Assembly (NCBI GenBank): GCA_000002445.1
Contig: CM000207.1
Coordinates: forward strand, 1,984,001-2,048,000
From: Trypanosoma brucei
Taxonomy: Eukaryota
Direction: 5' to 3'
Length of the DNA: 64,000 nucleotides
Positions 44,958 through 61,950 of the stretch are shown here, in pieces. The first letter of the stretch is position 1, and the number at the start of each line of letters is the position of its first letter. A model generated the notes under the pieces. The model had not been told where the DNA came from and did no database searches. It saw nothing but the letters and a program-made list of their open reading frames with translations. The position numbers and the translations under genes were made by a program.

Positions 44958-45809
44958 ATGGGATACAGGTTGTTGCGTGACAATGTCTTCAAGGCGAGTT
45001 GTGCCAAAGACTCCGACGAGCTTCGAGCGCGGCGAGAGCCGACGATGTTATACAAAGAGGATCAACTAGTTGCCCCAGCGTCAGGCACTGAGCGACGCTA
45101 TACATTGGTACTTGATTTAGACGAAACTGTAATATATGCTCGCGAGGGTCCCCTTTATGCTCGCGCATATTTGAAGGAGTTACTTTCTTTCATAAGGAAA
45201 AACTTTGAAGTTATTGTATGGACAGCCGGTGAGCGGGAGTATGCCGAATGCATCTTGGAAGAGATAAATATACGCAATACAGTTCGACACCTCATACACC
45301 GCCACAAAACTTGGTTCAGTTTTGATGATTATACGAAGGATTTGACAAAGCTCGGACGAAACTTGGACTACGTTATCATTATCGAAAATTCCCCGGACTG
45401 CGTTCGCACGAACCCACAGAACGGTATTATTGTCGATGACTTCAGAGTGAGCCAAACCCCACCCATGGAAGAAGCGGAAGCAGCATGGGAGGGAGACGGA
45501 AATAATAGAGAAAGGAAGGCTGGAAGCAGGAGCGACAGCAAAACACGACGTCAGGTGACAGATCGAACTCTCCTTCTCCTAAGGGAAGTATTAAAGGCGA
45601 TGGTAGAGAGTGGTGAAACGGTCCCTGATTTTCTTGCAAAGTGCCCGTTATTAACTCAACGGCGCGTCATAGGTTCTGACGGTAGCCAAATTCAAACATA
45701 TCATCTCGGGACCCGCCGCAAACGAGGGATACCTCAACTGTGCGCCTCATCACCTAAACGAAGGCGGGTAACGAAGGAATCGGCTCCCGGTGCCACCTGC
45801 ACGTCATAA
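44958..45809 (+). CDS. FCP1/SCP (NIF-like) HAD-family phosphatase
   Basis: DxDxT motif in LVLDLDETVIYA. VIVWTAGEREYA and IIIENSP match the CTD-small-phosphatase fold. This is the last + strand ORF of the array. Confidence 0.85.
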   Translation: MGYRLLRDNVFKASCAKDSDELRARREPTMLYKEDQLVAPASGTERRYTLVLDLDETVIYAREGPLYARAYLKELLSFIRKNFEVIVWTAGEREYAECILEEINIRNTVRHLIHRHKTWFSFDDYTKDLTKLGRNLDYVIIIENSPDCVRTNPQNGIIVDDFRVSQTPPMEEAEAAWEGDGNNRERKAGSRSDSKTRRQVTDRTLLLLREVLKAMVESGETVPDFLAKCPLLTQRRVIGSDGSQIQTYHLGTRRKRGIPQLCASSPKRRRVTKESAPGATCTS

Positions 45810-45954
45810 ATGTTGGTCGCTGAGCGGATGGCCCACCTGAAAGAAAGAGAGAGAAGGTGGGAAGGATAAATCAGAGAGGGAGTTTTCCTCGCTGCGCCTT
45901 TACCCTTCTAATATTGTTATTCTTGATCTATATCTATTTATAAAGATATATTGC

Positions 45955-45972
45955 ATATATATATATATATAT
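45955..45972. repeat. (AT)n microsatellite
   Basis: Alternating AT run about 18 bp long. Confidence 0.9.
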
Positions 45973-47728
45973 TATTGGGGGAAAGTGACACAATTTAACA
46001 CAAAGATTAGGTGTTATGTGTCGTTGTCTCATGGAAAAGTTGCTTCGCCTCACAGTTCATTAAAAAAAAGGATGGGATTGAAGTATCTTTCCACCAACAA
46101 GTATTTAATAATAAAAGAAAGAAAAGAGGGTGTAGATTACAAAACCCGGGTGTTGAGACGAACGTGGGTACGCCTGCCTGCGCATGAGTAAACTTGATTA
46201 TACCTTCGTACACTGAGAGTTTTTGCACATGACGCTTTGTAACTAATATTGTGTTGTCTCCTCTAGCTCTCCTTCCACTTGTTCTTTAGCATATTTCGTA
46301 TGTCGCTGGATCCGGTTTGTTCGATTTTACTTTGCGAGAGTTCGATGGGGGGCTGACGTCCGCTGGCAGGGAACGTAATTGTTGAACCTGAGGAATTTGC
46401 ATTCGGTGAAACTGTTGTTGGGCGGTCTTCGCTTTCAACTGCTGTATCTTTTGGTCTGGGCCCTTGAGTTGTTTTCGTTGTTGTAAGTTGTATGGGTCCG
46501 CCCTTCGTGGGGATTTTGCCCGCTGGGAGGTTCCACTACTCGGGTTGGAGGGCTGTGACTGATCTGTGGTCGATGTGATTCCTGTTTTGGTAGTGTGTTA
46601 AGCTGGAATCCCAGGTGAGCTAAATAGGCGTTTTTCCAGTTGGTCAATCCGGTTATAAAGTTGCTGGACTTGCTTTCGTATCGCCGCCGCTTTTTTCACG
46701 TTCCTGTTCCGCGTTACGGTGGCACTGTTCCACTCGTTGGGTTTCGCTGCTTCTGTGGATAAGGTATGCTGTTATGGCTACTGCCTATGTTACGCAAAAA
46801 AAAAAAATAGCACAAAAGGTGACACAGCGGGACCGGCTACAGCGACTGCCGTTTTGCGAACTATCTGTTACCTGTGATACGGCTATATAGATCCTGTGCC
46901 TTTAAGGGTAGTGGCCCGATTGGAGATTGAAAGCGTATCTTGCGAAGTGTTTTGGGGCCTCCAACAGTTATCCTCATCGAGGTGTTAATGCCCGAAAAAT
47001 GGCGGTCACGCGCTCACACCGCGCCCACTAAAAATTCGCCGCTAGACACTAAGCGGGAAGATGCGGACCGAGCTTAAAGGAGTGTTGTGTTGTTCGAGCT
47101 AAAACAACCCTAGCGCTCTGTGTGTATCCAGTTCTTATTACTTTCTTGTTTGTGTCTTCTGCACCAATCCATCAAGTTATATAGAAGGCCATATATGCGT
47201 GGTTCATGGTTATTATCATAGGCAATCCATTCACGGTGCTCACGATATGGGTGTCTTCATCTCAAATCTCTCTGACAAACTGTCACGTTGGTAAGAAGTA
47301 TAGTCTATTCTACACCTATCAAAGAGCAGGGCGCCCGACGGTATTGTCATCACTTCGCTGGTCCAAAGATTTTGTAGTAGATAAGCTTGAGATACTGTGA
47401 GCACATAATGTATAGTGTGGTGCGGACACTCACCTCCTTTAAAGAAACTTGGCGGTATACAAGCTGTAGTCTGTGTAATATGTTTGCATTCACGGCTATC
47501 TTGTTCAGAAATATGTGCAATCTGACCAGTGATACTTTCTTTCTGCGAGATGGCTCATTGGCAGGATTGAGTGCTGAGGGAGCGGAGTAAAAGTGCCACA
47601 TTATTTTTTTTTTAATTACGTAAGTCGTTGGTGGTGATTGCTACTATAGCGTTCAGTTCTTCATTTTGTTTTTTTTCTCTTTTACCATGGCGTATCGTAG
47701 GACTCTGTTGTCAATTGCAAAAGCAATT

Positions 47729-47730
<2 letters not shown>

Positions 47731-47778
<48 letters not shown>
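47731..47778. repeat. (GTT)16 trinucleotide microsatellite
   Basis: 16 perfect GTT units. This produces the poly-Leu pseudo-ORF at 47666-47848. Confidence 0.95.
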
Positions 47779-47779
<1 letters not shown>

Positions 47780-48301
47780 TGGGGGCCACTGAATGGAGTG
47801 AAACGGCGAGTGTGCGTTTTGTGGCTTCCGCTTCTGCACTGGTTATAAGCATGGTATCATTATAGATGCTGTCAGGGTCCCATTATTCACCATAAGCATG
47901 GAAGTCTTTCGGAGATTGGGCGTCACTCACTGTAGCAAACCATCTTTATGTACTTTTATCACTAATGATAGCCATATCAGGTGATTGTTGTGTGATCGGT
48001 TCCGGGTGGAGCGACTTTCGAGGATTGTTTGTCTTAACGATCTTCCATAAATCTTTAAGGGTCCGTCGCATCGAGTTGTTGAGGATATCATCTTAGTCAA
48101 TTTTGCGGTTTTGTCACCAGTGAGTCAAGCGTCTTCGTAGCGACTTGACTGTATATACGTAACGAAGCCAATTAACACCGAGTGTAGATGCCACTGAGCG
48201 GAATTTTGACCAGAGTTTTTCGAGTTCGATTACTTTTAGCGTCCTGGGGATAGATTCGTCCCCTGTTAGATGAGCTCGTGTTCTTGTTAAAGTTCTATCC
48301 C

Positions 48302-48999
48302 CTATGTGTACGGTATGTTTGTTTCTGTCCCATTTGATGCCGATATAGCCGTATTGTCATCTATACTCCGTTTCGCCATAGGTAACACGGGTTTCTCGGG
48401 CTCTCTTGTTTGTACATTTGTATACACATCCGCGGACTTTGTGGTAGGGGGCGTAATTCGTATGTCGTGGATCCACACGTCGATGATTTTTTGGACGTGG
48501 GGGAGTAGTTGCTCGTCCGTTCGTACGATACGCGGGTCCTCGGCTAGGACTAATAACAATAACTGCATAATTTCCAGTGATCCTACATAGCCGGTAGACA
48601 GCCTCGTGAATTCGTACGCTACTCCATCTTCATCAAAAAACCCAAAGTTTATCTGGGCGCGTGTTGATAATTCATCTTGGAAGGCCGCCGCCTCAAGGCC
48701 CATTGTAAGTGCTGGTGGTGCCCATACCCTAGATAGCAACTCCTGTTTAAAATATAGGCATAAGCTCGGACAATAACCATCTGCATATACTTCATCGTTA
48801 ATTGCTTGTGGCCATAATATCATTCGCCGTTGCCATTTTTTCGCTTCAACTCCATAACGGTATTTGGCCACGCATAGGCTATAATATAGTGTGGATCAAC
48901 CCTACCAATAATATGTGCGTCTTCCAGTTGCCGTGCATCCTCTCACCGAGGCTTGAATGCCGTCTCACATTCGATAATTATGGCATTGTCCTTGGGCAT
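48302..48999 (-). pseudogene. decayed ORF of unknown family (in-frame stop plus frameshift)
   Basis: A - strand ATG at 48999 is preceded by a polypyrimidine tract (complement of 49026-49046) and AG. The reading MPKDNAIIIECETAFKPR hits TGA at 48943-48945 and continues in the same frame as EDARQLEDAHIIGRVDPHYIIAYAWPNTV. The frame then changes at the A6/T6 run (48836-48841) into the 189-aa track ORF, whose own listed start is GTG. Confidence 0.55.
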
Positions 49000-49210
49000 C
49001 CTTTACAGTGCGCTCCATCTTTTTTAAAAAAAAACAAGAGAAATATACACATCCGTTGTCGAAACCGAGGACACGTCCATACAATCAATTGGAAGACGTC
49101 TGCCCCTCTCCTTTTCTCTTGATTCGTCATGCTTCCGGGAGGGGGACCTATGGCTGGGCAAACCAGTTAGGAGACGGCAATCGGACGACAATATGTCATG
49201 ACATGTAATA

Positions 49211-49628
49211 TCACGCAGATGCCAGGTCCGAGTAAATCCAGTCTATGCCGTTTCCAGTGCATGGGACGCCGTTTTGCACTTCCATCATTGTCTCGTCGAT
49301 TTGGTCCAGTCGTTCGGTGATGCGAGTTCGCCCGTTTCTAAGAGACATAAGCGGTTCTTTGAGGTTGGCGAGGCGGTTTTTGACACCCTGCAATTCCTCG
49401 CAGGATATCTTAATGCCTTTAATTTGGTTAATCGTATTGGCATCCAGACGGTTGATGGATTTAACTAACTCGTCCCAGTGTCCGTGTACGACCGTATTTA
49501 GAATCTCTGGACCGACCGAGTGAGTAAGAGAGTGAACCAGTTGAGAGGTCTCGCCGACTGTGATCGACGGTCGCTTTATTTGGGTACGGCGACTCTCACG
49601 AAAGCAATAAGAAAAGTGCAAAACGCAT
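49211..49628 (-). pseudogene. ATG-less coiled-coil-like ORF, possible gene remnant
   Basis: The track ORF starts with TTG, and its first in-frame ATG is at codon 92. An out-of-frame ATG at 49628 (MRFALFLLLS then stop) could be joined to it by a 1-nt indel in the T runs. The sequence is helical and heptad-like (LVKSINRLDANTINQIKGIKISCEELQGVKNRLANLKE). Confidence 0.35.
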
Positions 49629-51523
49629 ATTCACATTCAACGGCTCGCGTTGGCCGGAAAATTCTGGAGGGAACGCAGTTTGTCAGCACGTAGTTAACGT
49701 GCGGGGGGCGGTGCTGTGCGAACTGTGCTTATGATGCTTTATAAAATGATATAAACCAGGCGAGATCTGCATTCATGAAGACCGTCTGTTTCCGGATCGT
49801 GGGGTAGCCGGCGTGTGTGGTGGATGGAACCCTGACCCGCGCGTGGGAAGGCGGTGCAACGCGACCAGATCAAGCAGCTTGCGGGCGTTGCTGACTAATA
49901 GTTGTTAAGAGGCAAACCTGTTGGTTTGGAGGACTTTGGGGCGCACCCGGGTGGAGATGTTTCAGATGCGGAAGGGTTGGAAGAGTTGGAAGGGAGATGC
50001 GAATCCATCATCTTACGCGAAGTGGGAGGCACGAAAAGGAAGCACGGCAACTGTAGCAAAAGCAACGTGAATGCCAGTGGTGTGTTTGCGTTGTTTCCGC
50101 GGCGCTGGAAAGAGTGCAAAGACCGGAAAAATAGAGTTGCGGTTCATGTAAAACCGTATGCGTGCAATGCCCGGTAGTGAAGCAGGATTTAAGAAAAAAA
50201 AAGAGAGATAAACATGCGGGGAGGAAGTTTACGAGTTCAACATGTGAAAGGTGTTTCGTAGCAGGGGCTCTGATAATGCACATCAACCTCGTGAATATGC
50301 ACGGCCCCGTGGCACCGCTAAAGGGACTACGAGCAGTGGAGGGAAAGTGGAGTTAGCCGTAGCCGCGCCGGTGTTGAAACCAAAATAAAAAAAAAGGATG
50401 ACATGGAGGTAACAGTTAAGGAAGGAGAGGATAGAGAGAACAGGGTGGGGTTGGAATAAAATGTTCCTAGTAAACTTTTGATGTTCACGGGGCACGTGGG
50501 ACTCCAAAGAGTAAGGAGAGGTGCGCACTTAAGGCACACACAAGAAAAATGCATACTGAATCCGATTGCGCGCTCCGAGGGGTTTCCTGACGCTTTTATA
50601 AGGAAGTGGAAAGTGTGAAGTGAAACCCACCAGTGCCCCATACTGCGGCTAAACGTAAGCGAGGCGAGTTGGTCTAAAAGGTTTAGTAGGAAGTACACAC
50701 GGCGATGGAAAGAAGGACGTTTACAACAAATTGAAGTTGGGCATCCAAGGATTGCTGAGCCACTTGCCCGAATGCACTGCCGTGGAGAAGCTGAAGATGA
50801 AGCATGAACTAATAGGCTTGACGAAGAAAGTGTCTGATGGGTTCTCTGCCTGTGCTCCCCAGCAGAGAAGGCCCAGACGAATAGAGAAAAAAAAACTCAG
50901 CGAAAAAGAAATTCAATCTAAAAAGAGAAGGGGGTTATCTTCTCACAGGGGGAATACCGACCATCGGAATTGCCACCTTTGGAGTTTTTTTTTGTTAAAA
51001 AAGGGATATAAATATTCTCTTATCTTTGAATGCAGCATTGCCTTTGAGAACTTGAAGAAAAAAAAAGTAGCGAAAGAGGTATTTCAGTTCTTTGCGAAAA
51101 CACAAGTATGTAAGAAAACTCAAGTGCGAAGAGGCCAGTGGTGACAAACACACATATGAAGACCATAAAATTAAGGCTCCTTGTCATCGTGTTCAAGTAC
51201 GGCAAAACAGTTGCTTGCTGATACGTTTACTATTTAAAAATAAAAACATTTTCTTTTTTGCAAAAATAACACAACTACTGCTAAGAAGGTAAACAAGCTG
51301 TTTTACGGGCGTGTCGTCCCTCTGCCGGCATTCCAAACCCTCAAACGAATATTTTGGTTAGAAGGAGCGAATACGCGGCGATGGGATGTATGTCTTTTGA
51401 AAATAAATAAAAAAAAATAAAGAAGTTAAGTGCACACTAGTGCTTTGGAAAAAAAAAAAAATAATAACAATAATAGTAAAAGGATCAGAAAATAGTCCTC
51501 ATTTACATATCCAACACGCACCG

Positions 51524-52093
51524 TTATGACATCATTAACATCGCGGAAACTAAGAGCAGCAATGGAACAACGTTTGTGCTTAACGATGCCGCCAACACCT
51601 CTGTGCCACCTCCATTGGACTCACACTCTCCACCGTCTACGCACGTGTCGGTCTTCGTTACTTCCGTTACATCTTCGGGATCTTCGATGTCATCCTTCTG
51701 CAGGCCATCATCATCACTTTTGACAGCAGGGCTTTTTGTGTCAACATTTGTTCCCTCAACTGCTCCTTTGGTGCCTGAGTTCCCCCCATTCCCCTCTTGA
51801 AGGTTGTTGTCATCACTTTTGTTGGTCGGACCTTTGGGTTTGGCACCTGCTTCTTCATCACTTTTGCTGCCATCGGGATATTCCATATCTTTCTCATACG
51901 GGATGCTGGCCTCCTCCTCTTCTTCTTCTTCTACGTCAGGCGGATCCTCAATGTCTCCTCTACTAACGCCAGGATTGTTGAGGAATTTATTCACCAGCCC
52001 TGCTGCTGCCCCCTTTGCTTCCACTTCTCCATTTAAAAGAGAGCCATTCATGAGCATCGCAACCAAGTATGCCAAAAGAGCCGTTAGCCTCAT
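51524..52093 (-). CDS. small acidic secreted protein, putatively GPI-anchored
   Basis: True ATG start. N-terminal signal-like MRLTALLAYLVAMLMNGSLL. D/E-rich body containing E7 and two DIEDPxDV motifs. The C-terminus ...GGGTEVLAASLSTNVVPLLLLVSAMLMMS has small residues followed by a hydrophobic tail, as in GPI signals. Confidence 0.7.
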   Translation of the reverse strand: MRLTALLAYLVAMLMNGSLLNGEVEAKGAAAGLVNKFLNNPGVSRGDIEDPPDVEEEEEEEASIPYEKDMEYPDGSKSDEEAGAKPKGPTNKSDDNNLQEGNGGNSGTKGAVEGTNVDTKSPAVKSDDDGLQKDDIEDPEDVTEVTKTDTCVDGGECESNGGGTEVLAASLSTNVVPLLLLVSAMLMMS

Positions 52094-52842
52094 CTATTCT
52101 TTTTTCTCTTTTTTTTCGCGTCCCAATGTTGCCTTATCTTGATTTAATTATTTATTTTGAAATAAATACGGGGAGAGCACACCAGGCATTTATATCGAAG
52201 GAATGCTCCCAGAAAAAGTTGGTAACTATCAATGTGAGGCTGTATCAAAAGCAATGTTTGTCCAACCCAAAGGTTTGGTACGATTTGGACAAACTTCCGC
52301 CCCTCCGCTATGCTGAGTTTGTCTCCCACATTCCGTGGGGAATGGACCAGGCCGTGATGAAACTACGGCGGTTCCAGAACCCCCCCCCAAAGGGAAAATG
52401 TTACGGATGCAGCCTCTTTTTGTGTAAAATGTGAAAAAAGTTTTTCGAAAACATGCTTTGAAAGACGATATATGGTTGCGAATTCTCTCCCCCTCCCCCC
52501 CCCCAAAAGACCACATTAACCCTTCGCAGCTGGTCAAATACTCAGGGGTAACTCGTCGTCTTCCCCAGTGCATGCGTTTGCGCGTGTCGGCAGCTGTGGC
52601 GGAGCGTCGATGTCCCTAGTGGGTGCTCGCGTGGCTCAATGCGGAGGTGGGGATAAGACCGCATGATGCGGGAATGTAAGACTCTGACTGGGGACATCAT
52701 TATAAACAACCCTCCCCTCCATGCCTTCAAAAAACGCAAACAGGGTTACACCTCCAACGCCCATGTCGCAAACGAAGGAGCGAAGCCTTGCTGATTTCGG
52801 TTCCAGGAACGATACCATACAAATTTTTAGTGTTGACGCGCG

Positions 52843-52913
52843 GCGCAGTTGGTCTAGTGGTAGAATTCTCGCCTGCCACGCGGGAGGCCCGGGTTCGATT
52901 CCCGGACTGCGCA
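52843..52913 (+). tRNA. tRNA-Gly(GCC): tRNA-Gly (anticodon GCC)
   Basis: 71-nt cloverleaf. The acceptor is GCGCAGT/ACTGCGC plus discriminator A. The anticodon arm is CTCGC-CTGCCAC-GCGGG. The T arm is CCGGG-TTCGATT-CCCGG. The body AGTGGTAGAATTCTCGCCTGCCACGCGGGAGGCCCGGGTTCGATTCCCGG matches canonical eukaryotic tRNA-Gly(GCC). Confidence 0.97.
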
Positions 52914-52916
52914 TCG

Positions 52917-52921
52917 TTTTT
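52917..52921 (+). terminator. Pol III T-run terminator of tRNA-Gly
   Basis: TTTTT begins 4 nt after the discriminator base. Confidence 0.8.
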
Positions 52922-53657
52922 CTGCCGCATGCAGAACCCACCATTTTTTTTTACTTATTTTGGAACGAACTTGCTATTTTTTTTTGTTTGGTTGCTGTTG
53001 TTTGTTTGCCATCATTTCGCTACGGTGACGATAATTCCCCGCCACGCTTTGTCTCCACATTTGCAAAACTTACGCTAACGGAGGGTGCTGTAGAAATATG
53101 AGCGTCCCCCGGAGGCACCGCAAGTCCGCTTGGTACATCAAACCTCAGAGACGAGAAGGGACGAAACTCGTTTAGACCCGATGTTGGTCGGAACGGGCCA
53201 TTCACACAGGTTTCACCGTCGCCGACCCAGCTCACCATACAAAACTACCCCTCCCGCTTAACATCCACGGACACCGAGACGCTCATATGATAATAACTAC
53301 GATTTCGCAGTTGCTGTTTCACAGCGTGTATGAACTGTTTCAAACCACACACGCCAAATGACGCGACACAACAAACTAATAAACACACAGTAAAAAAAAT
53401 GAATGAGCATCCAACTGCGCAAATTCATTGATAGAGAACGCCTGTAAACAAAACCACAAACAATGCAGCCATGTCCACACTAGAAGCGTATAGCACTGTT
53501 ACCTCTCACTAAAGTGTTAAACGGGAACTGCAGCTGCTGCGCTACAGAGTCGATAGTCACAGCGTCCCTCGGTGTTTGCATCCGGAGAGATGATGACGGG
53601 AGGGAACCATTTCCAGCTTCTTTTTCCCACTTCTTTTTTTTTCAGGAGCTTGTAACG

Positions 53658-54011
53658 CTATGCACTCTCTCCGGAGCGTCGCGAGACCTCCAATTCCTCC
53701 TCAACGGTGTCCACATCGAACCCAAGACCCCTCATTTCCTCAAGGTACCGTTGCGTTGGATCACCACTGGCGTCCATTGCTTCTTTTCGTGAGCGCTGCC
53801 TCCGCATGGCATACCCGAAGGCGGCCACACCACCGCCAAACACAAAAAATGCACGCAAGCCGCGCCACGCCAATCCCCGGAGAATCTGTGTGTTTTGCTC
53901 AAAGCACTCCGAACCAATCTTCTCCGCGATTCGCATATTCTGCCGCGTCCGCTCATCAAGCCCCAACGGCGGTTTTTCACCACCACCACCACCATCCCCG
54001 CTCATTGCCAT
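53658..54011 (-). CDS. small single-pass membrane protein, function unknown
   Basis: The track start at 54050 is GTG; the first ATG is at 54011 (MAMSGDGGGGGEK...). There is one hydrophobic Gly-rich segment (AFFVFGGGVAAFGYAM) and an acidic C-terminus. The overlapping + strand ORF at 53660-54250 is low-complexity His/Pro/Arg-rich and is rejected. Confidence 0.6.
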   Translation of the reverse strand: MAMSGDGGGGGEKPPLGLDERTRQNMRIAEKIGSECFEQNTQILRGLAWRGLRAFFVFGGGVAAFGYAMRRQRSRKEAMDASGDPTQRYLEEMRGLGFDVDTVEEELEVSRRSGESA

Positions 54012-55538
54012 ACGCCAAGCTGAATGCGTTTCGGCTAAATAATTCCACACACTATGTCCCCCTTAACTGTATGAGTGTTTCCCCGATCGCTTCCTTTATC
54101 CGCTTGCTTGTTTGGAGAAGGTACTTCGTTCGCCCTATTGCCCGTGTATGCAGCAAGGTAAACAACAAAAAAACACATGAAAGAAGTGGAGTGGGCCACT
54201 GGAGATGCAAATGTCTTCGCCATCGAGTACACACTCATGTTGTTGGTTAAAGGCATCCGTCTGCTTTGAGTACGGCCTGTTCTGCGTTAAGTGGGGTGGA
54301 AACATAATAATTTTAAACATGGCGCCATCTCAAGGAGTGGTGAAACTTCTGCCCACGCCGGCAAGATGTGTACAGTACGGTGCGACAGTTGATAACGCGC
54401 AACACAACGCGGAAAGGGAAGGGAAGGGAAAGTAAAGTAAAGGGGGCGGGAGGGGGAAAGAAAAAGGCTAAAACAAATTTGAGGTGGAAGCAGCGGGTAT
54501 AAAAAGTAAAATGATTGGGGAGCGATTGTCTCCTCACAATGCCACTTTCCTCCCTCGAAAAAAAAAAAAACTCGCGCGCAGCTCACAAAAAATGTTTCCT
54601 TCAAATGCGTTTCCCCTTCCCTCACAACTCTACAACTTGTTCCCAACGCGCCACCGGCAGGAAAATATCTCGGAGAGGGGGAAAAAGAAAAGAGGCCGAT
54701 GCGCAAAAAACGACGGCGCGGAGCATCACGTGGTTATCGGCAACCGCTGTGGTGGTCGAGCCGATGTTTGGAGGTCGTAAAAACCAGCGATGATCCGCAG
54801 ACACGAACGTGTGAAGTTTTCGCCCTCTCGTAGGCGAAAGTGGCGATAAACCACAAACTTTTTTTTTGTGTATTGAGAGAGCGGAATTCCGGTTTTACCC
54901 CTTTGAGTTGTTCTTTGGTCGTGAGGGATTGAAGAGGGGGACAAAACAAGATAGCGGAGAGCACCTCATTTCCTCCCTTCATCATGCCGCTAGCCATTCC
55001 TCCTCATCGTCATATACGCCCAACGCGTGGCACTCCCCTTCAATTGTTATGAACAAAAATTCAATAAAAGCAGGCAAGGATACCGAACAAAAACAGAAAA
55101 GAAAAAAAGACAACCAAACGGGAAACTGCCGCCGAGGACTCTAGCCACGTTGACCTGCAAATGCTGCCTCACTTCAGCCGGATGCCATTTCACCCCTCCG
55201 TACCTCAAGGGAAAGAAGATTTGGCCGCTTTTACTTCTTTTTTAAAAAAAAAGAAAAATATCTCTGCCTTCTTCCTCTTTGGCGCCACAAAGGTGAAGGG
55301 ACGTAGCAAGTGATCAAATACAGTTAGATAGATATGGCGGATAGAAACACCGCAGTAGAGTTATACGTATATGCGAGCGTGTATTATAGATGTCACAAAG
55401 GCAATTCCACGTGCCTAGGTCCATACAGCCAATAGTTTGTGGTTTCCCCACGCACGCACCACCTTTTACCACGAAAAAATTAAAAAAAACCCGTACACCG
55501 AGAGTGAAGCAACAGCCACATCATCGTGCCTATCGGGT

Positions 55539-56036
55539 TTAACTTCGAAGCCTTGGTCGCCGAATGTGCAGCTGACGCGCGGGACTGGTGTTTCGGCTAC
55601 CCGCGCTGCTGACACTAGGGGCACATACGCTCGAGGCGCTCGTCGGGAGGTTGATTAGCGATGGTTGAGTCTGCAGACGACCTCCAAACGGCCTGCGTGC
55701 GGAAGGACTCGACATTCTCGTTGTGCGGCTGTCCCGTCCCGGTGTTGCTTCCCTTTGAGTGTCTCCCCCCGTTCCCCTCATTTGAAGGTTAGATGTTGGG
55801 GAGGGGCGTCGCAACGGCGTGGTGGGACACTTTTGGTGTAGAGTATCCACTTTCTTCCCCAGGATAGTCACGACTGCCTGGAGGTTGCGGCAATCTGCCT
55901 CTCTATCTGCTAACTCCTGCGTGACTCTCGCAAGTTTTTCTTCAAATGTGTCCCTCTGGCGGCGCAGCTCGGCTTCAAATATAACCTTCTGCCGAAGAAG
56001 CTCCGCACGGAAAGCATCTAACTCATCAGAACTCAT
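55539..56036 (-). CDS. hypothetical protein with an N-terminal coiled coil and an S/R/P/T-rich tail
   Basis: ATG-initiated 165-codon ORF. It begins MSSDELDAFRAELLRQKVIFEAELRRQRDTFEEKLARV. Confidence 0.65.
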   Translation of the reverse strand: MSSDELDAFRAELLRQKVIFEAELRRQRDTFEEKLARVTQELADREADCRNLQAVVTILGKKVDTLHQKCPTTPLRRPSPTSNLQMRGTGGDTQREATPGRDSRTTRMSSPSARRPFGGRLQTQPSLINLPTSASSVCAPSVSSAGSRNTSPARQLHIRRPRLRS

Positions 56037-56444
56037 ACTGACACAACAGGCAGCGGGGTGCCAAATGTTTAATGAACCTCCAAGGTGATTCCCTTCTATA
56101 AATGTTGCTTTTTTCCCTTTAAATTCTTCTCCCTATCCTCAACGGCTTCCTTAACCTACCCAACTGCATTCAAAGAGGAGGAGATGATGCCAATAAGCAA
56201 TGATAAGAGGTACCAACGATGTGCTGACGTGAAAGGTTGTCTAGTCTTCCACAACTCTTGTTTGGAAACCAATGAACATATATATTAATTACGCGCCTCC
56301 AACAGCCTTAGCTGCACGTGTTGGAAACAAAAACGAAGGTAATCATCCGACGCAGGTAAAAGAGGAAGTAGGGAATATCTTGTGACTCGCCATCGGAAAC
56401 TCGCATTGCCTGCACACGCAAGCGACAACCAACATGTACCACCA

Positions 56445-58517
56445 TCAGTACACGTCCTTCAAGTATCTACCTTCCCGCTCCATCCTCGCCAGGAACTCAA
56501 CTGCTGCCTCTTCGGCGAATCCACCATACTCCAGCAACTTTAATATTGCCTTGTCCACGCTACGCGATACCCGTGATGCATCACCCGAAATGTAAATAAG
56601 ACAACCACCGCCCACGCGACTGGTCAAGAGTTTCAGGAGGTAATCTTGGTGTTTCTCCAAAAGGTGTGTGACATAGTACTTCTCAGGTTGATCCCGGCTG
56701 AATGCAGCATCAACTAGTGTCAACACGGAGTCACAGCGTACACCGGCAGAAGGAAGTTTCCCCTCACCGTGTGGACACCATTGGCGCACCTCACGCTCCA
56801 CAAAATATTCCGATGAGCGGTTTCGATTACCAAAGAAGAGAACCATGGGCCCATGTTCGACCGCAGCTTGCTTCTTCAGCATCGCCTCCCGTCTGTAGCA
56901 GAAACCGATCATTGAAGCAACGCCGGTTCCAGGACCGATCATCACCACCGGGCGCCCGCTACACTTTTGGGGGAGGTGAAACGTTGACTTGCGAACAAAT
57001 GCGGTTACTTTGGCTCCAACGGAAAGGTGGTGAAGAAATAAGGAGTTTACGCCATCCGGAATGATGCGGATGAATGCCTCCACTGTCGTGGGGTGCGTTA
57101 ACATATCCGATGCAATAGAATAGAACCTGGGTTGCATTCGTGGCATCGCTTCCACAAAGTGCCCGACAGGAAGCCTTCCACGCCAACTACAAAACATTTT
57201 CAGGCAATCCAGAACGGTATAATGGCCTCTGCGGTAGGATGGTGTCGATGTTCCAAACTCTGCTACAGCATTGAGAGAATGTCCTCCACGAAGAAAATCA
57301 ATCATTGCTGTTTTTTCCTCAATTTCCGAGCAGTACCTTGCCAGGAGGCGCAACATGGACTTCCGAGGTTTGCCACACAAATCCAGGTACCGCTCGAACA
57401 CCGTTCTCAGTGTTACACGCGCAGGAAGAGTATTTCGCAACGAAGCTCTAGCGCGTGCATTAACGGGCGAGCACAACTCCACTGGCTTTGTCCAGTCCGT
57501 CAAGGGGATGTTCAAAACCTGCCTATAAGCTTCAACTACATCAGGTGGATTAGCGGGGTAAATTCCCAAATGGTCACCCGCCTGATACTTTACAGTGTGA
57601 CCGCCAAAGCCCAATACGAGATGCAGCACATAGGAGCCATCTTCTCGCTCGCTCGTTCGCCTCGTTTTGGCTTCCAACACAAACTGCCCCGGATATTGTC
57701 CAGACGGTTCCAGCAACGACGGTGGTGGAGCAAAAGGCAGTGTATCCGCTGGTTTATCCGGTATGAAGCGGAACAGTAACTGTGGTTGTGGTGGTTTGTC
57801 CGACAACGCCTCCAGTTTCATTCCGCATGTTTCTTCAAGTTTCTTCGTGAGAGTCTCCTCCCACGCGTCGAAAAGATCATCCCTCAGAGGGTCACGTGCG
57901 TCGCCGATACCAATAGGAACCAGTTCCGTTCCTCCACCCTTTTGCAGTAGCCCATCGACATCAACCCCCGCCCGGCAGAAATACTTGTACGAACTCTCCC
58001 CCAAAGCGAACACGGCGTAGAAGACGTCCTTAAACGGCTCAGCACCTTCTTCCAAACCCCTGCGCACCACCGCCTTCATTTGTATGAAGAGGGAGAAAAA
58101 GTTGTCAGGCACCTCCCCTTCACCTGTGGTTGACACAACAAACACCACTACGGGCATCTGGGTGCCTTTACTTGCTGGAAAAAGTGGTTGTTGAGGAGTA
58201 TGTTGAGCAAGATAAGGCCACGCGGAAGGGTCAATGAGTGCGATGTCAGCACCCCGTTCTCGCAGATTGGTCACGAGGGTCTTGGCATACATTTCAGCAT
58301 TTCCAGAAACACTTCCGTAGATCACTAATATCGCTTCGTCCTGATAAGTTTGGCACCCCTTGCTCGCTTGCCCGTTCTGCAGCATATTCGCGTATTTGGC
58401 CGAGAGTGACCGTTCATTGGGCAGACAACCCCTCCGCGTAACCCATACGCGCACCGCAAAGGCCACTAGGCACGTCCCCGCGAGGATACCAGATGCGGTG
58501 CAGAACCGACGAAACAT
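56445..58517 (-). CDS. CPR: NADPH-cytochrome P450 reductase (diflavin reductase)
   Basis: N-terminal TM anchor. The flavodoxin module has IYGSVSGNAEMYAKTL and VSTTGEGEVPDN. The FAD motif is RFYSIAS. The NADPH motif is GPGTGVASMIGF. The C-terminus is GRYLKDVY. Confidence 0.92.
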   Translation of the reverse strand: MFRRFCTASGILAGTCLVAFAVRVWVTRRGCLPNERSLSAKYANMLQNGQASKGCQTYQDEAILVIYGSVSGNAEMYAKTLVTNLRERGADIALIDPSAWPYLAQHTPQQPLFPASKGTQMPVVVFVVSTTGEGEVPDNFFSLFIQMKAVVRRGLEEGAEPFKDVFYAVFALGESSYKYFCRAGVDVDGLLQKGGGTELVPIGIGDARDPLRDDLFDAWEETLTKKLEETCGMKLEALSDKPPQPQLLFRFIPDKPADTLPFAPPPSLLEPSGQYPGQFVLEAKTRRTSEREDGSYVLHLVLGFGGHTVKYQAGDHLGIYPANPPDVVEAYRQVLNIPLTDWTKPVELCSPVNARARASLRNTLPARVTLRTVFERYLDLCGKPRKSMLRLLARYCSEIEEKTAMIDFLRGGHSLNAVAEFGTSTPSYRRGHYTVLDCLKMFCSWRGRLPVGHFVEAMPRMQPRFYSIASDMLTHPTTVEAFIRIIPDGVNSLFLHHLSVGAKVTAFVRKSTFHLPQKCSGRPVVMIGPGTGVASMIGFCYRREAMLKKQAAVEHGPMVLFFGNRNRSSEYFVEREVRQWCPHGEGKLPSAGVRCDSVLTLVDAAFSRDQPEKYYVTHLLEKHQDYLLKLLTSRVGGGCLIYISGDASRVSRSVDKAILKLLEYGGFAEEAAVEFLARMEREGRYLKDVY

Positions 58518-58976
58518 CCTTCATAGAACCTGGAGTCCCTTTTTAGTTATTGTTGTTGTTTTTACAAAAAAAAAAATGGACGTCAAAAGGGTGGATAACA
58601 AATAAAGGGAGCCATTGCTAACACACGGGGCCTCCGAGCGGTAGAACATACGACAGGATAGGGGTGGAAACACAACACACTGATACATGTTTATACGCTA
58701 GGTTTAACCGTTGGAAATTACTTTCTCATTAAGCGCAGACTTGTGTGTGCGTGGAACATGCACACCACCTGCGCTGGTGCCGCGGCTGTTCCTCTCCGCC
58801 ATCAGACCCTCATTCCACCGCAGGAACTCCTTGTTTATGATCTCCCCTCGCTTTGATCCAACCGCCCAATAAAACAACACTTCACAACGTGCACACCGCT
58901 GTTTGCTGTAGGAACGAGTGAAACGGCAGAGGAAATACTAATAAAAACAGAGTTTGAATGGGTGTGTTAGCGACAT

Positions 58977-60266
58977 CTAGTGTCCCTTCTCCGGGTTCCG
59001 CATCTTCCGCTTCACGGGGGCCCGGGGCGCTGGCGACGAGAAACTCTTCTTTCCTTCCACTAATGGCCGCAAATCCTTCGGTATTTTCCTTCGAGGGTTT
59101 GTCACAACTCCCATCCACGGAGGTTGATCATCTACAGGCCCCTGCACCTTTGTCTTTCCTTCTGTACGCATTCGCTTTCCGTTTCCCTCCGCCCCTTGTG
59201 AACGACTATCGGCCACTTCACCCCGAGTCCCAAGCTTGCGCTTCTCTCGTCGAGTTGCCTTTGATGCCGTAACAGCCTTAGATTTCTGTACGTGGACAAT
59301 GCGAATCTCACGATCCATGAACAGCGTACCGCGGAGAGCAATGGCAGCTGCAACGGAACCCTTGCTTTGAAATTCTACATAACCGAAACCTTTACACATG
59401 CCGGACTCTCGATCACGTACAAGGCGAACGCGTTTCACATCTCGTATCCCCTTTTCCACGAAGAAGTTCCAGAGTGCTTCCTCGTTGCTGTCGTAAGCAA
59501 CGTTCCCAACAAACACTGATGTCTCGGGCGCGTACTCGCGGCCTTCGGGGTCCAGTGTTGTCACGACAATGTGGCGACCCTCAACAACAACACCATTTTT
59601 ATCAAGTGCCTCTTTAATGGATGATTTATCCTTGAATAACACGTATGCCACAGCACTGTACTGCTCCCCCTTCTTAACGTCACCACGGAGTACACGAATA
59701 GCGCGACCCACACCCCTCGGCTGAACTGTCGCCTCGCCGCCGTTAAGATCCTTCTCTCCTTCCAGAGCTTGCGCCCGGATACGTACCGACTCGATGGGAC
59801 CACAGGTTTTGAATACTTTCTCCAAAACACGGCGTTTGACATCATTCACAAGATTTCCCACGAAAACGGTGCGGCTGTCTTCCTCCTCATTTTGGTGGAG
59901 GGCGTGACGAAGTTGTTTTTTGCGTCCGTCTGGCTTGCTCTCCCCAACTTCATCGCCACCGGTTGTATTGTCTACAATCACCGTCCGAAATATTTCATCC
60001 TCCGTCGCCGACTCTCCTTTTCCCTTCCATGTGCCATTCTTCCTTGATACACCCTCCTCAATCCGAAGTCGCTGCTTTTCCCTACGTGTTGCTTTTCTCA
60101 CCTCCGGGGCAACAGCAAATATGTCAAATGCCGCTTTTTTCGTCGGTTCAAACACGGTGGAGGTCGCCACAACACTGTTTTTGCTAGTCCCTTTTTTTTT
60201 CAGCTTTTCACTCGGAGAGGTCGATGACGGAGTTGCGGCCCCAAACAGCTCAGCGGTGAGCGACAT
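58977..60266 (-). CDS. nucleolar-type RNA-binding protein with two RRMs (Nop12/RBM34-like)
   Basis: The track start at 60500 is TTG; I chose the ATG at 60266 (MSLTAELFGAA...). RRM1 is RTVFVGNL...; RRM2 is SVFVGNVAYDSNEEALWNFF...KGFGYVEF. The flanks are basic. Confidence 0.85.
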   Translation of the reverse strand: MSLTAELFGAATPSSTSPSEKLKKKGTSKNSVVATSTVFEPTKKAAFDIFAVAPEVRKATRREKQRLRIEEGVSRKNGTWKGKGESATEDEIFRTVIVDNTTGGDEVGESKPDGRKKQLRHALHQNEEEDSRTVFVGNLVNDVKRRVLEKVFKTCGPIESVRIRAQALEGEKDLNGGEATVQPRGVGRAIRVLRGDVKKGEQYSAVAYVLFKDKSSIKEALDKNGVVVEGRHIVVTTLDPEGREYAPETSVFVGNVAYDSNEEALWNFFVEKGIRDVKRVRLVRDRESGMCKGFGYVEFQSKGSVAAAIALRGTLFMDREIRIVHVQKSKAVTASKATRREKRKLGTRGEVADSRSQGAEGNGKRMRTEGKTKVQGPVDDQPPWMGVVTNPRRKIPKDLRPLVEGKKSFSSPAPRAPVKRKMRNPEKGH

Positions 60267-60509
60267 GCGTATGTTTGTAAGCCCTTTGCTTTTTTTTCTT
60301 TGCGCAGTAAGTAAACGAAAGGACAAAGGGGGGAAAAGTAGGGACCGGACCCAACTACTAAGCAAATTAACTGGTGGAACAGGGAGTGGTGGCACACGCT
60401 TAGAAAACAGCGGAGAGTTGTTGGTGTGCACGTAGTACTCACGCGCACAAAAAAAACAATGATAAGGGTAAATAATAACGGGAGGAAAACCTACTTGCAA
60501 GAAACGAAC

Positions 60510-61526
60510 TCACGTACTTCCCCCACGCACTTCACCATCACCGCCGTTATCGTCCTCCACGTCAGAATCAAATCCCTCATCAATAACACACCGCTTCTCA
60601 CGTTGCTCAATCATGCGACGCTTGAACTCCTCATGCGCCTTTTCCCACGACTGGCGGAATGCCTCCGCCCTGGTGGCGTCAGCACCATTACGCTCCGATA
60701 TTTTGGTCGTATCAATTATTGTCTGGTCTGTTATAAAACACCTATCCCACCACAATGTCATTCCAAGTGCCATGGATTCCTTCACCAACTGGACAACCAG
60801 CAGCCGAAGTGGGTACGCGGGTAGAGAGTGCAAAGACCAGCATCCTTCCACGGTGTCCTCGTCAACCTTTACAGGATAACGCAAGACATATCGTCGCCTC
60901 CCTCCATCCCCCTTTACGCTAAAGGAGATAACGCACGAGGAAGTATGATTTGGCTGCTCCTCTTCCTCAAGGGAGAAGTTTTGAATGTCCTTCGCCTTCG
61001 TGTTCATATTGGGTAGTATAAAGCTGACAGAGACGGTGTCTCGCGTTTGCGACCATATGTGTGACTCTCCTTCACGTCCACCATTCCGTATGAGGTTGTT
61101 GTACATCATATGATCTTCGCTTTCTCCATCGCTGTCATCATTGCACCGTGGTGTGTGCTTGTCCCCACACGGTACGCCACCACTTCTCGCAGGAGAATCA
61201 CAATTGTGTGCGGAAGCAGAACTGGCACCAATAATTCCTCCGCCATCAACTGCATTACTGCTACTCGATGTCCAAGCTGGCAACGGTGCCCCGCGGCTGT
61301 CGTTATTATTATTTTTATTATTACTTCCGCTAAGTGGCTCTCTAAAGGGTGACACTGTAGCTTGCGGCGGGGTATTAACCATATGCACACCACTTGAGCT
61401 AATTGTAACGCGGGAGGGATACTCTAACTGCGTCACCCTCGGCTTTCCGGGAGTCGCTGAATCACCGCTACCAGAATCATCGCTATCACATATTTTGTCC
61501 CATTTTGAGTAATCAATCCCGGGCAT
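60510..61526 (-). CDS. CS (p23/HSP20-like) domain protein with a Cdc37-type N-terminal motif
   Basis: The track start at 61580 is TTG; the first ATG is at 61526 (MPGIDYSKWDKICDSDDSGSGD, compare Cdc37 DYSVWDHIEVSDDED). The CS signature is HIWSQTRDTVSVSFILP. Confidence 0.8.
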   Translation of the reverse strand: MPGIDYSKWDKICDSDDSGSGDSATPGKPRVTQLEYPSRVTISSSGVHMVNTPPQATVSPFREPLSGSNNKNNNNDSRGAPLPAWTSSSSNAVDGGGIIGASSASAHNCDSPARSGGVPCGDKHTPRCNDDSDGESEDHMMYNNLIRNGGREGESHIWSQTRDTVSVSFILPNMNTKAKDIQNFSLEEEEQPNHTSSCVISFSVKGDGGRRRYVLRYPVKVDEDTVEGCWSLHSLPAYPLRLLVVQLVKESMALGMTLWWDRCFITDQTIIDTTKISERNGADATRAEAFRQSWEKAHEEFKRRMIEQREKRCVIDEGFDSDVEDDNGGDGEVRGGST

Positions 61527-61950
61527 CCCCCACTTAAACACACTCGTTGTTCCATTCGAAAGATACACGAGAAATGACAATTAAGCGAAACAAAAGATAA
61601 GTAAGGGAGAAGAAACAAATTGTTCAAAATTAATAAGAGTAGAGCACAAAAACACAATGGTTTAAACACGACGCGAGAGTGATCCCTACAGACATGCACT
61701 TTAATAACAGACAAGCATATGTACAGATGGATCCCCATACCGTGACACGGGGCACACGCACGTGGCCCGGTGGATGTTAAGGGGAGGACGAACGAATTAA
61801 AAGGAGACGAGAATTGTGAAAATGAGCTGGTATTGTCCGACTCCTTCACTGAACATCATGTAAAAATGAAGAGATGAGAATCGAGTGCAAAACATTTCAA
61901 CTAATAAGACACACAGCCGCTACCCTTTTTCCTCGACGGGGGGGGCAACT

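What the first reader, a model, noticed from the sequence alone, without database searches (positions are those of the whole stretch)
52843..52921. tRNA-Gly(GCC) embedded antisense within the - strand array: likely internal transcription boundary
This is a canonical Pol III gene with its own T5 terminator, sitting on the opposite strand between two - strand protein genes (53658-54011 and 51524-52093). In T. brucei, tRNA genes inside Pol II units have been reported to coincide with termination and re-initiation chromatin marks. If that holds here, the 48.3-52.1 kb genes (acidic protein plus two decayed ORFs) would form a separate mini-unit that may be regulated differently.
Basis: partly seen in the sequence, partly recalled or inferred. 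Interest (0 to 1): 0.5.

Follow-up and report, generated by a model that had tools for sequence, protein, structure and literature searches.

The report
Known tRNA-Gly gene in termination zone
This is a genuine, already catalogued glycine tRNA gene of Trypanosoma brucei chromosome 9 that sits where two opposing gene arrays meet, a published termination region, so it is an ordinary example of a known arrangement.

Summary
A canonical tRNA-Gly(GCC) lies at 52843-52913 (+) with a T5 run at 52917-52921, between two real minus-strand genes.

The window is T. brucei TREU927 chromosome 9. This tRNA is already published as locus chr09-I. In Lister 427 it is listed as overlapping the convergent Pol II termination region cTTR_25 and as bound by Pol III/termination-associated factors.

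The wider context changes the reading:
- Plus-strand genes end at 45809 and conserved minus-strand genes end at 53658, so this is a convergent strand switch.
- T. vivax, T. cruzi and Leishmania have a 0.75-1.3 kb gap here, with a DHHC gene and no tRNA.
- T. brucei has 7.8 kb of lineage-specific DNA instead: the tRNA, an orphan acidic gene, and a decayed VIPER-like reverse-transcriptase relic.

The tRNA is not where minus-strand transcription ends. The next gene, Tb927.9.13200, gives a normal, RBP10-regulated, procyclic-enriched mRNA. The relic, Tb927.9.13160, is silent and rises about 50-fold when Pol II termination is disabled. The final stop therefore lies 1.7-4 kb beyond the tRNA.

A boundary role is partly supported. 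Re-initiation at the tRNA is untested. A single co-regulated mini-unit is contradicted.

The parts
52843..52913 (+). tRNA-Gly(GCC) gene (T. brucei locus chr09-I; ortholog of Tb427v9_001488600). Box A 52850-52860, anticodon 52875-52877, box B 52892-52902.
   Evidence: ARAGORN. Rfam 59.2 bits. Boxes read. Cloverleaf-like fold, -33.3 kcal/mol. Catalogued by Padilla-Mejia 2009 and in Staneva 2021 Table S8.
52917..52921 (+). T5 run, the Pol III terminator, 4 nt after the tRNA 3' end.
   Evidence: Sequence. The average T-run in T. brucei tRNA genes is 5 +/- 1 (Padilla-Mejia 2009). Invariant in four genomes.
52944..52952 (+). T9 run, a possible back-up Pol III terminator.
   Evidence: Sequence. Conserved in four genomes.
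53658..54011 (-). Last conserved gene of the - strand unit (117 aa, predicted membrane protein). Its stop codon is 745 bp from the tRNA.
   Evidence: tblastn with T. vivax, T. theileri and Leishmania orthologs, E 1e-26 to 1e-43. pN/pS 0.2-0.3.
51524..52093 (-). Tb927.9.13200 (= Tb09.211.4070). A Trypanozoon-specific acidic 189-aa ORF with an N-terminal signal-like segment and a C-terminal hydrophobic, GPI-signal-like segment. It is head-to-head with the tRNA, 750 bp away.
   Evidence: Exact protein match to EAN77219. CDS of 570 nt with RBP10 binding about 25-fold and procyclic/bloodstream ratio about 16-18. No Pfam family. pN/pS about 0.5.
51173..51523 (-). 3'UTR of Tb927.9.13200 with two UA(U)6 RBP10 motifs.
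   Evidence: The 352-nt sequence published for this 3'UTR (Mugo & Clayton 2017, S1 text) matches window 51173-51524 exactly on the - strand; base 51524 is the last base of the stop codon.
47793..48939 (-). Degenerate VIPER-like retroelement reverse-transcriptase (and RNase H) relic with frameshifts. It contains the annotated 173-aa ORF 48302-48823, which is Tb09.211.4030 / Tb427tmp.211.4030 and by numbering Tb927.9.13160.
   Evidence: phmmer finds 92 homologs. The hits carry RVT_1, RT_RNaseH and RVT_3 domains. tblastn HSPs fall in shifted frames. The nearest hits are from T. congolense, Angomonas deanei and Leptomonas pyrrhocoris. The ORF rises by log2FC 5.64, padj 3.3e-12, on PP1-1 knockdown.
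49211..49621 (-). 136-aa ORF of unknown origin (the second 'decayed ORF'). It has an internal stop codon in the gambiense and equiperdum IVM-t1 orthologs.
   Evidence: Only a sub-threshold coiled-coil Pfam hit. No similarity to the RT relic.
45810..53657 (.). 7.85 kb of lineage-specific filler in the convergent strand-switch region, between the last conserved + strand gene and the last conserved - strand gene.
   Evidence: ORF map. The cumulative GC-skew maximum is at about 52 kb. The corresponding gap is 0.75 kb in T. vivax, 1.3 kb in T. cruzi and 1.15 kb in Leishmania, in each case flanked by a DHHC gene that is absent here.
44958..45809 (+). Last gene of the + strand unit, an NIF/FCP1-type phosphatase.
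   Evidence: Pfam NIF, E 3.5e-30. Orthologs end the opposing unit in T. vivax, T. cruzi and Leishmania.

Best explanation
The feature is a functional, single-copy, Pol III-transcribed tRNA-Gly(GCC) gene with internal A and B boxes and a T5 terminator. It is one of three such genes in T. brucei. It lies in 7.8 kb of Trypanozoon-specific DNA that fills an ancestral convergent strand-switch region on chromosome 9.

For Pol II, it marks the near edge of the - strand unit's termination zone rather than its end. Pol II leaving the last conserved - strand gene meets the Pol III complex head-on. At least part of it passes through and transcribes Tb927.9.13200. It is then finally stopped by the base J / H3.V / PNUTS-PP1 pathway between about 51.2 and 48.9 kb, before the retroelement relic Tb927.9.13160.

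Shown: the identity of the tRNA; the convergent layout; the lineage-specific origin of the filler; the published overlap with cTTR_25 and the published factor binding; expression of Tb927.9.13200; and termination-dependent silencing of Tb927.9.13160.

Inferred: that Pol II reads through the tRNA rather than stopping and restarting, and that the tRNA complex is only a partial barrier.
For: tRNA identity.

Convergent layout: + strand genes run to 45809 and - strand genes start from 53658. The cumulative GC skew peaks near 52 kb.

Synteny: T. vivax has DHHC facing NIF across 0.75 kb; T. cruzi has NIF facing DHHC across 1.3 kb; Leishmania is the same. None of these loci holds a tRNA, by ARAGORN or by Rfam. 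No DHHC remnant is detectable in the window.

Published status: locus chr09-I; overlap with cTTR_25 and binding by TBP and the other Pol III/TTR factors. These sources also state that tRNA loci are nucleosome-free and that most tRNA genes lie at convergent strand-switch regions.

Downstream gene transcribed: the Tb927.9.13200 3'UTR matches the window exactly. The mRNA is at about 41 RPM in bloodstream forms, bound by RBP10, and 16-18-fold higher in procyclic forms. It also rises in proline-grown cells.

Final stop further on: Tb427tmp.211.4030 rises by log2FC 5.64, padj 3.3e-12, in stranded mRNA-seq after PP1-1 RNAi. The authors state that such genes lie downstream of base J and H3.V at the ends of transcription units. 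The same locus is also up after PNUTS RNAi, at log2FC 2.2-2.6 but with weak q values. Tb427tmp.211.4070 is absent from the PP1-1 list.
Against: No nascent-RNA or ChIP profile of this locus could be read, so read-through across the tRNA is inferred, not seen.

The cTTR_25 label, taken literally, places the end of the - strand unit at or before the tRNA. Expression of Tb927.9.13200 then needs either leakage or a start site that the annotation lacks. How Muller et al. 2018 drew the termination-region boundaries could not be established.

The tRNA and Tb927.9.13200 are divergently oriented about 750 bp apart, with a nucleosome-free, TBP-bound region between them. This geometry would also suit re-initiation.

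Tb427tmp.211.4030 was not found in the supplements held for the H3.V-knockout study.
Confidence: 0.5

Rival explanations
1. The Pol III complex on the tRNA stops - strand Pol II completely. Pol II then re-initiates in the open chromatin upstream of the tRNA (52.1-52.8 kb), so that Tb927.9.13200, with or without the relic, forms a separate short unit.
For: tRNA genes between head-to-tail units are reported to coincide with termination followed by a start region (Staneva 2021, citing Siegel 2009 and Marchetti 1998). In L. major, acetylated-histone peaks lie immediately downstream of tRNA clusters located within polycistronic gene clusters (Padilla-Mejia 2009). The tRNA and Tb927.9.13200 are head-to-head about 750 bp apart, tRNA loci are nucleosome-free, and this one binds TBP. 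Tb927.9.13200 is expressed. Two runs of 9-10 G on the - strand lie at 52380-52388 and 52495-52504.
Against: The published label is a convergent termination region, not a single (head-to-tail) one, so no start region is annotated behind the tRNA. The same C-runs occur six times in ordinary + strand intergenic regions of this window, so they are not diagnostic. Tb927.9.13200 and Tb927.9.13160 respond differently to termination defects, so the three ORFs are not one co-expressed unit.
Confidence: 0.3
2. The tRNA gene has no effect on Pol II. It is a passenger in lineage-specific DNA, and the association with the termination region reflects only that insertions are tolerated at convergent strand-switch regions. 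Termination is set entirely by base J / H3.V further on.
For: The tRNA is absent from the syntenic region of T. vivax, T. cruzi, T. theileri and Leishmania, which terminate there without it. 133 of 154 annotated termination regions have no Pol III gene. tRNA loci show weak synteny in trypanosomatids. The gene behind the tRNA is expressed at ordinary levels. The tRNA-Sec genes on the same chromosome sit inside a Pol II unit without termination-region overlap or factor binding.
Against: This tRNA does bind the factor set that marks Pol III-associated termination regions. Head-on Pol II/Pol III conflict at an occupied tRNA gene is expected to impede Pol II to some degree; this rests on established knowledge from yeast and was not tested here.
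Confidence: 0.2
3. The tRNA mainly bounds the + strand unit. Pol II leaving the NIF gene runs about 7 kb co-directionally through the filler, antisense to the relic and to Tb927.9.13200, and stops at the tRNA. This would create a zone of dual-strand transcription.
For: The + strand-type composition (positive GC skew) continues to about 52 kb. Polypyrimidine tracts and C-runs of the type seen in + strand intergenic regions lie at 52097-52117, 52380-52388 and 52483-52504. The label 'convergent' implies both units end in this region. Convergent regions in T. brucei can be siRNA loci with dual-strand transcription (title and abstract of Reynolds 2016).
Against: No strand-resolved data for the + strand at this locus were accessible. 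Tb927.9.13200 mRNA accumulates normally, which argues against strong antisense or siRNA pressure on it.
Confidence: 0.2

Closest known systems
T. brucei Pol II termination regions that coincide with Pol III genes (Siegel 2009; Staneva 2021: 20 of 154 termination regions)
   Same: This very gene is in the published list, as overlapping cTTR_25 and factor-bound. It is a single tRNA at the end of a polycistronic unit.
   Different: Here the next same-strand gene is still expressed, and the termination-dependent silent gene lies 4 kb further on. The tRNA is therefore not the final stop.
L. major chromosome 3 convergent strand-switch region, where a single tRNA gene separates two units and Pol II termination maps to the tRNA region (Martinez-Calvillo 2004, as cited by Padilla-Mejia 2009)
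   Same: One tRNA gene lies between two convergent units.
   Different: In L. major the tRNA is the only feature between the units. Here it shares 7.8 kb with an expressed orphan gene and a retroelement relic. It also arose in the T. brucei lineage and is not syntenic.
Base J / H3.V / PNUTS-PP1-dependent termination before the end of a unit, which silences the last genes (Reynolds 2016; Kieft 2020, 2024)
   Same: Tb427tmp.211.4030 (Tb927.9.13160) is in the published derepressed lists.
   Different: That mechanism acts about 1.7-4 kb from the tRNA and does not require it.
T. brucei tRNA-Sec genes on chromosome 9, embedded in a Pol II unit and transcribed by Pol II (Aeby 2010, abstract)
   Same: A tRNA gene lies among Pol II genes on the same chromosome.
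   Different: The tRNA-Sec genes show no termination-region overlap and no Pol III/TTR factor binding. The tRNA-Gly has canonical A and B boxes, a T5 run and factor binding.
tRNA genes as chromatin barriers or insulators and Pol II roadblocks in yeast and human (established knowledge; referred to)
   Same: A stable TFIIIB/TBP-type complex, nucleosome-free DNA and cohesin enrichment at tRNA genes.
   Different: Barrier activity has not been shown for this locus.

Membership tests
Eukaryotic nuclear tRNA gene (Pol III type 2 promoter) | Sequence and cloverleaf structure match the tRNA covariance model | tested here: met
   RF00005 at 59.2 bits against a gathering score of 29, full length 1-71. 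ARAGORN calls Gly-GCC.
Eukaryotic nuclear tRNA gene (Pol III type 2 promoter) | Internal box A and box B | tested here: met
   TGGTCTAGTGG at +8 to +18 and GGTTCGATTCC at +50 to +60. Box B matches the general consensus GGTTCGANTCC exactly; the consensus is from established knowledge.
Eukaryotic nuclear tRNA gene (Pol III type 2 promoter) | Oligo-T terminator just downstream | tested here: met
   T5 at 52917-52921 and T9 at 52944-52952. The T. brucei average is 5 +/- 1 T.
Eukaryotic nuclear tRNA gene (Pol III type 2 promoter) | Occupancy by Pol III machinery in vivo | not testable with these tools
   Literature only. The Lister 427 ortholog is bound by TBP and the other Pol III/TTR factors except BDF7 and DOT1A (Staneva 2021 Table S8).
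Pol III gene-associated Pol II termination region in T. brucei | Position at the end of a polycistronic unit or between units | tested here: met
   745 bp after the last conserved - strand gene. The strand switch is shown by the ORF map, GC skew and synteny.
Pol III gene-associated Pol II termination region in T. brucei | Overlap with an annotated termination region | not testable with these tools
   Literature: cTTR_25. The boundary criteria of that annotation were not found.
Pol III gene-associated Pol II termination region in T. brucei | Pol II transcription ends at the Pol III gene | tested here: inconclusive
   Only indirect evidence is available. The next - strand gene gives an mRNA at about 41 RPM in bloodstream forms, so either Pol II passes the tRNA or it restarts behind it.
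Pol III gene-associated Pol II termination region in T. brucei | H3.V / H4.V / base J enrichment | not testable with these tools
   No ChIP tracks were accessible.
Head-to-tail termination and re-initiation site (sTTR plus non-divergent start region) | H2A.Z / H4K10ac start region directly downstream on the same strand | not testable with these tools
   The published label is cTTR, not sTTR, which argues against an annotated start region. The tracks themselves were not seen.
Head-to-tail termination and re-initiation site (sTTR plus non-divergent start region) | Expressed same-strand genes behind the boundary | tested here: met
   Tb927.9.13200 is identified in the window by exact 3'UTR match and has published expression.
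Head-to-tail termination and re-initiation site (sTTR plus non-divergent start region) | Promoter-like sequence (G-runs or GT-rich) | tested here: inconclusive
   Two G9-10 runs lie on the - strand at 52380-52388 and 52495-52504. Identical C-runs occur six times in + strand intergenic regions, and there is no GT enrichment on the - strand.
Genes silenced by J/H3.V/PNUTS-PP1 termination at the end of a unit | Silent in wild type and derepressed at least 3-fold when PNUTS or PP1-1 is depleted | not testable with these tools
   Literature. Met for Tb427tmp.211.4030 (log2FC 5.64, padj 3.3e-12) and weakly for Tb427v9_001488200/300. Not met for Tb427tmp.211.4070, which is absent from the list.
VIPER (tyrosine-recombinase retroelement) relic, for ORF 48302-48823 | Reverse transcriptase / RNase H homology to kinetoplastid VIPER-type pol | tested here: met
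   92 homologs. RVT_1, RT_RNaseH and RVT_3 domains in the hits. Frame-shifted HSPs at 47793-48939. The nearest hits come from A. deanei and Lep. pyrrhocoris, species reported to carry coding VIPER copies.
VIPER (tyrosine-recombinase retroelement) relic, for ORF 48302-48823 | Direct similarity to a reference VIPER element, tyrosine recombinase, SIRE ends | not tested
   No reference VIPER sequence was available. No recombinase remnant was found.

The most novel reading that the evidence does not exclude
The nucleosome-free, TBP-bound region upstream of this lineage-specific tRNA gene might act as a Pol II re-initiation site. It would drive a one-gene unit for Tb927.9.13200, a Trypanozoon-only, acidic, probably GPI-anchored, procyclic-stage protein. 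That unit would be closed 1.7-4 kb further on by a J/H3.V/PP1-dependent stop in front of a retroelement relic. This would be a concrete case of a new expressed gene arising in a termination zone with a tRNA gene as its de facto promoter and insulator.
Probability: 0.25. Interest if true: 0.45.

Novelty: already known. Interest (0 to 1): 0.2.

Why it matters
The general rule that Pol III genes mark some Pol II termination regions in trypanosomes is established, and this particular tRNA is already in the published tables. The finding therefore adds little.

The modest added value is local:
- The convergent region was rebuilt in the T. brucei lineage, with loss of a DHHC gene and gain of a tRNA, an orphan stage-regulated gene and a VIPER-like relic.
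- Published data, once mapped onto the sequence, place the effective minus-strand stop beyond the tRNA.
- That makes this a clean single-tRNA locus for testing whether a head-on tRNA gene is a leaky barrier, a stop-and-restart site, or neutral for Pol II.

Tried and rejected
- Polypyrimidine-tract strand asymmetry was used to infer transcription direction across 44-57 kb. It was not discriminating.
- G-runs and GT-richness were examined as start-site marks. The same runs occur in ordinary intergenic regions.
- The bacterial sigma-70 and intrinsic-terminator scan is irrelevant for this organism and gave counts at chance level.
- A weak sR17 C/D snoRNA hit (21 bits against a threshold of 36) lies inside the acidic CDS and was treated as chance. 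No companion snRNA or 7SL gene lies next to the tRNA.
- A DHHC remnant in the filler was sought by tblastn; none was found.
- The two 'decayed ORFs' are not paralogs of each other. There are no long repeats in the filler.
- Siegel 2009 is not held in the library, and the sequence-specific promoter paper was not found.
- The locus IDs were not found in the supplements held for the H3.V-knockout study or the H4.V study.
- How Muller et al. 2018 defined termination-region boundaries was not found.
- The first exact-sequence lookup of the P450 reductase failed, although a 100% identical protein exists.

Full report
**Observation**

ARAGORN reports a single tRNA in the 64 kb window: tRNA-Gly(GCC) at 52843-52913 on the + strand. 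Rfam's tRNA model scores it 59.2 bits (gathering score 29, E = 2.9e-10) over the full model, and nothing else in the window reaches a gathering score. The gene has the following features:
- Box A is TGGTCTAGTGG at +8 to +18, and box B is GGTTCGATTCC at +50 to +60.
- It gives a cloverleaf-like minimum-energy fold.
- A T5 run lies at 52917-52921, 4 nt after the 3' end, followed by a T9 run at 52944-52952.

The stated end of 52921 includes the terminator.

**Organism and locus**

The acidic ORF at 51524-52093 (-) is identical to Tb09.211.4070 of T. brucei TREU927 and to the T. equiperdum ortholog. The 173-aa ORF at 48302-48823 (-) is identical to Tb09.211.4030. The published 352-nt 3'UTR of Tb927.9.13200 (TREU927, chromosome 9, reverse strand) matches window 51173-51524 exactly. 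The window is therefore T. brucei chromosome 9, and the acidic ORF is Tb927.9.13200.

The tRNA is already in the literature:
- Padilla-Mejia et al. 2009 list it as the single-gene locus chr09-I, overlapping the 'unlikely' ORF Tb09.211.4080.
- Staneva et al. 2021, Table S8, list the only chromosome 9 tRNA-Gly(GCC) of Lister 427 (Tb427v9_001488600, 71 nt). They record it as overlapping cTTR_25 and as bound by all Pol III/TTR-associated factors except BDF7 and DOT1A.
- That this is the same locus follows from two facts. It is the only Gly tRNA on that chromosome. And the Tb927.9.13160 orthologs, Tb427v9_001488200 and _001488300, sit three to four gene slots away from it.

**Context**

Long ORFs run on the + strand from 1 to 45809 and on the - strand from 53658 to 63642. 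The cumulative GC skew peaks near 52 kb. The window therefore holds a convergent strand switch, and the tRNA lies 745 bp beyond the last conserved - strand gene (117 aa, 53658-54011).

Synteny makes this clear. The ancestral order is P450 reductase, a coiled-coil protein, a small membrane protein and a DHHC palmitoyltransferase, facing an NIF-type phosphatase.
- In T. vivax the gap is 0.75 kb.
- In T. cruzi the gap is 1.3 kb.
- In Leishmania the order is the same.
- None of these loci, nor T. theileri, contains a tRNA, by ARAGORN or by Rfam.

In T. brucei the DHHC gene is gone, with no tblastn trace. The gap is 7.85 kb of lineage-specific DNA. The tRNA, T5 and T9 are identical in TREU927, T. 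b. gambiense, T. b. equiperdum IVM-t1 and T. equiperdum OVI.

**What lies behind the tRNA on the - strand**

(a) Tb927.9.13200
- The protein has 189 aa, is acidic, and has a signal-like N-terminus and a hydrophobic C-terminus. It matches no Pfam family.
- It is annotated 'T. brucei spp.-specific'.
- It evolves with pN/pS of about 0.5. Five conserved neighbours together show 1 nonsynonymous against 28 synonymous changes.
- It is nevertheless a real mRNA. It is bound about 25-fold by RBP10 and carries two UA(U)6 motifs. Its level is about 41 RPM in bloodstream forms and 16-18-fold higher in procyclic forms. It also rises in proline-grown procyclic forms.

(b) The 173-aa ORF (Tb09.211.4030 / Tb427tmp.211.4030, by numbering Tb927.9.13160)
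- It is not a cellular gene. phmmer finds 92 homologs.
- The matching region of those homologs is a reverse-transcriptase domain followed by RNase H.
- tblastn extends the homology over 47793-48939 in shifted reading frames.
- The nearest relatives are multicopy T. congolense proteins and proteins of Angomonas deanei and Leptomonas pyrrhocoris. Both of those species are reported to carry coding VIPER elements, while T. brucei VIPER is described as extinct.
- This relic rises by log2FC 5.64 (padj 3.3e-12) in stranded mRNA-seq after PP1-1 RNAi. The authors attribute this class of genes to read-through past base J / H3.V sites at the ends of units.
- The same locus is up after PNUTS RNAi, at log2FC 2.24 and 2.65, but with q values of only 0.06 and 0.23.
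- Tb427tmp.211.4070 (Tb927.9.13200) is not in the PP1-1 list.

**Interpretation**

Three facts have to be reconciled:
- The tRNA lies in an annotated convergent termination region and carries the factor set typical of Pol III-associated termination regions.
- The very next - strand gene is transcribed at an ordinary level.
- The gene after that is silent unless the termination machinery is disabled.

The simplest reading is a graded termination zone. The occupied tRNA gene, met head-on, is at most a partial obstacle. Pol II goes on through Tb927.9.13200 and is stopped for good between about 51.2 and 48.9 kb. I give this reading about 0.5.

The tRNA and Tb927.9.13200 are head-to-head about 750 bp apart, across what should be open, TBP-bound chromatin. 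Against it, the published label is 'convergent' rather than 'single', and I found no sequence mark that separates this interval from ordinary intergenic DNA. A pure passenger role for the tRNA, and a main role in bounding the + strand unit, cannot be excluded either.

The idea that the acidic gene and the decayed ORFs form one co-regulated unit is contradicted by their opposite behaviour. The acidic gene's distinct regulation is post-transcriptional, through RBP10.

**Comparison with what is known, and verdict**

This is an instance of a known arrangement. Pol III genes coincide with a subset of Pol II termination regions: 20 of 154 in Lister 427, and 34.6% of T. brucei tRNA loci lie at convergent switches. 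The gene itself is already tabulated.

The tRNA-Sec genes on the same chromosome provide the contrast. They are embedded in a Pol II unit, are not factor-bound, and have no termination-region overlap.

Nothing here is new in kind. The interest is low, apart from the locus being a tidy test case and the small annotation corrections listed under things noticed in passing.

Noticed in passing
window 47793-48939 (-), including annotated ORF 48302-48823: The gene annotated as 'T. brucei spp.-specific protein' / hypothetical (Tb09.211.4030, by numbering Tb927.9.13160) is a frame-shifted relic of a VIPER-like retroelement reverse transcriptase / RNase H, not an orphan cellular gene.
   Followed up: yes
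window 45810-53657, compared with L002 14986-16002, L012 12372-13343, L005 18891-19730 and L004 14552-15517: The DHHC palmitoyltransferase that ends this transcription unit in T. vivax, T. cruzi, T. theileri and Leishmania is absent from the T. brucei locus, with no detectable remnant. Whether it moved elsewhere in the genome was not checked.
   Followed up: partly
window 51524-52093 (-): Tb927.9.13200 is a lineage-specific acidic protein with signal-peptide-like and GPI-signal-like ends. It is strongly procyclic-enriched and RBP10-bound, and has relaxed constraint (pN/pS about 0.5). It looks like a young surface-protein gene sitting in a termination zone.
   Followed up: partly
window 53658-54011 (-) versus 53660-54250 (+): The conserved 117-aa gene has orthologs across trypanosomatids. 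It appears only in the T. equiperdum and T. b. equiperdum protein sets. The gambiense annotation instead carries an antisense 197-aa ORF at the same place. This looks like a likely mis-annotation in older records.
   Followed up: partly
window 52599-52692 versus L006 17585-17640: A segment of about 95 nt, 150-245 bp upstream of the tRNA, is replaced by an unrelated C-rich segment of about 57 nt in T. b. gambiense and T. b. equiperdum IVM-t1. TREU927 and T. equiperdum OVI share the long form.
   Followed up: no
window 45810-55900 versus L006 and L007: The filler DNA is about 2.3% diverged between TREU927 and gambiense/IVM-t1, against about 0.4-0.6% in the neighbouring conserved coding sequences.
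   Followed up: no
window 34000-36000 and 10000-12000: Two unusually AT-rich intervals (GC 0.38 and 0.39). The first has very dense polypyrimidine and polypurine tracts on both strands and no long ORF on the + strand.
   Followed up: no
window 51695-51751 (-): A sub-threshold match to the archaeal C/D snoRNA family sR17 (21 bits against a threshold of 36, E 0.2) lies inside the acidic CDS. It is most likely chance.
   Followed up: no
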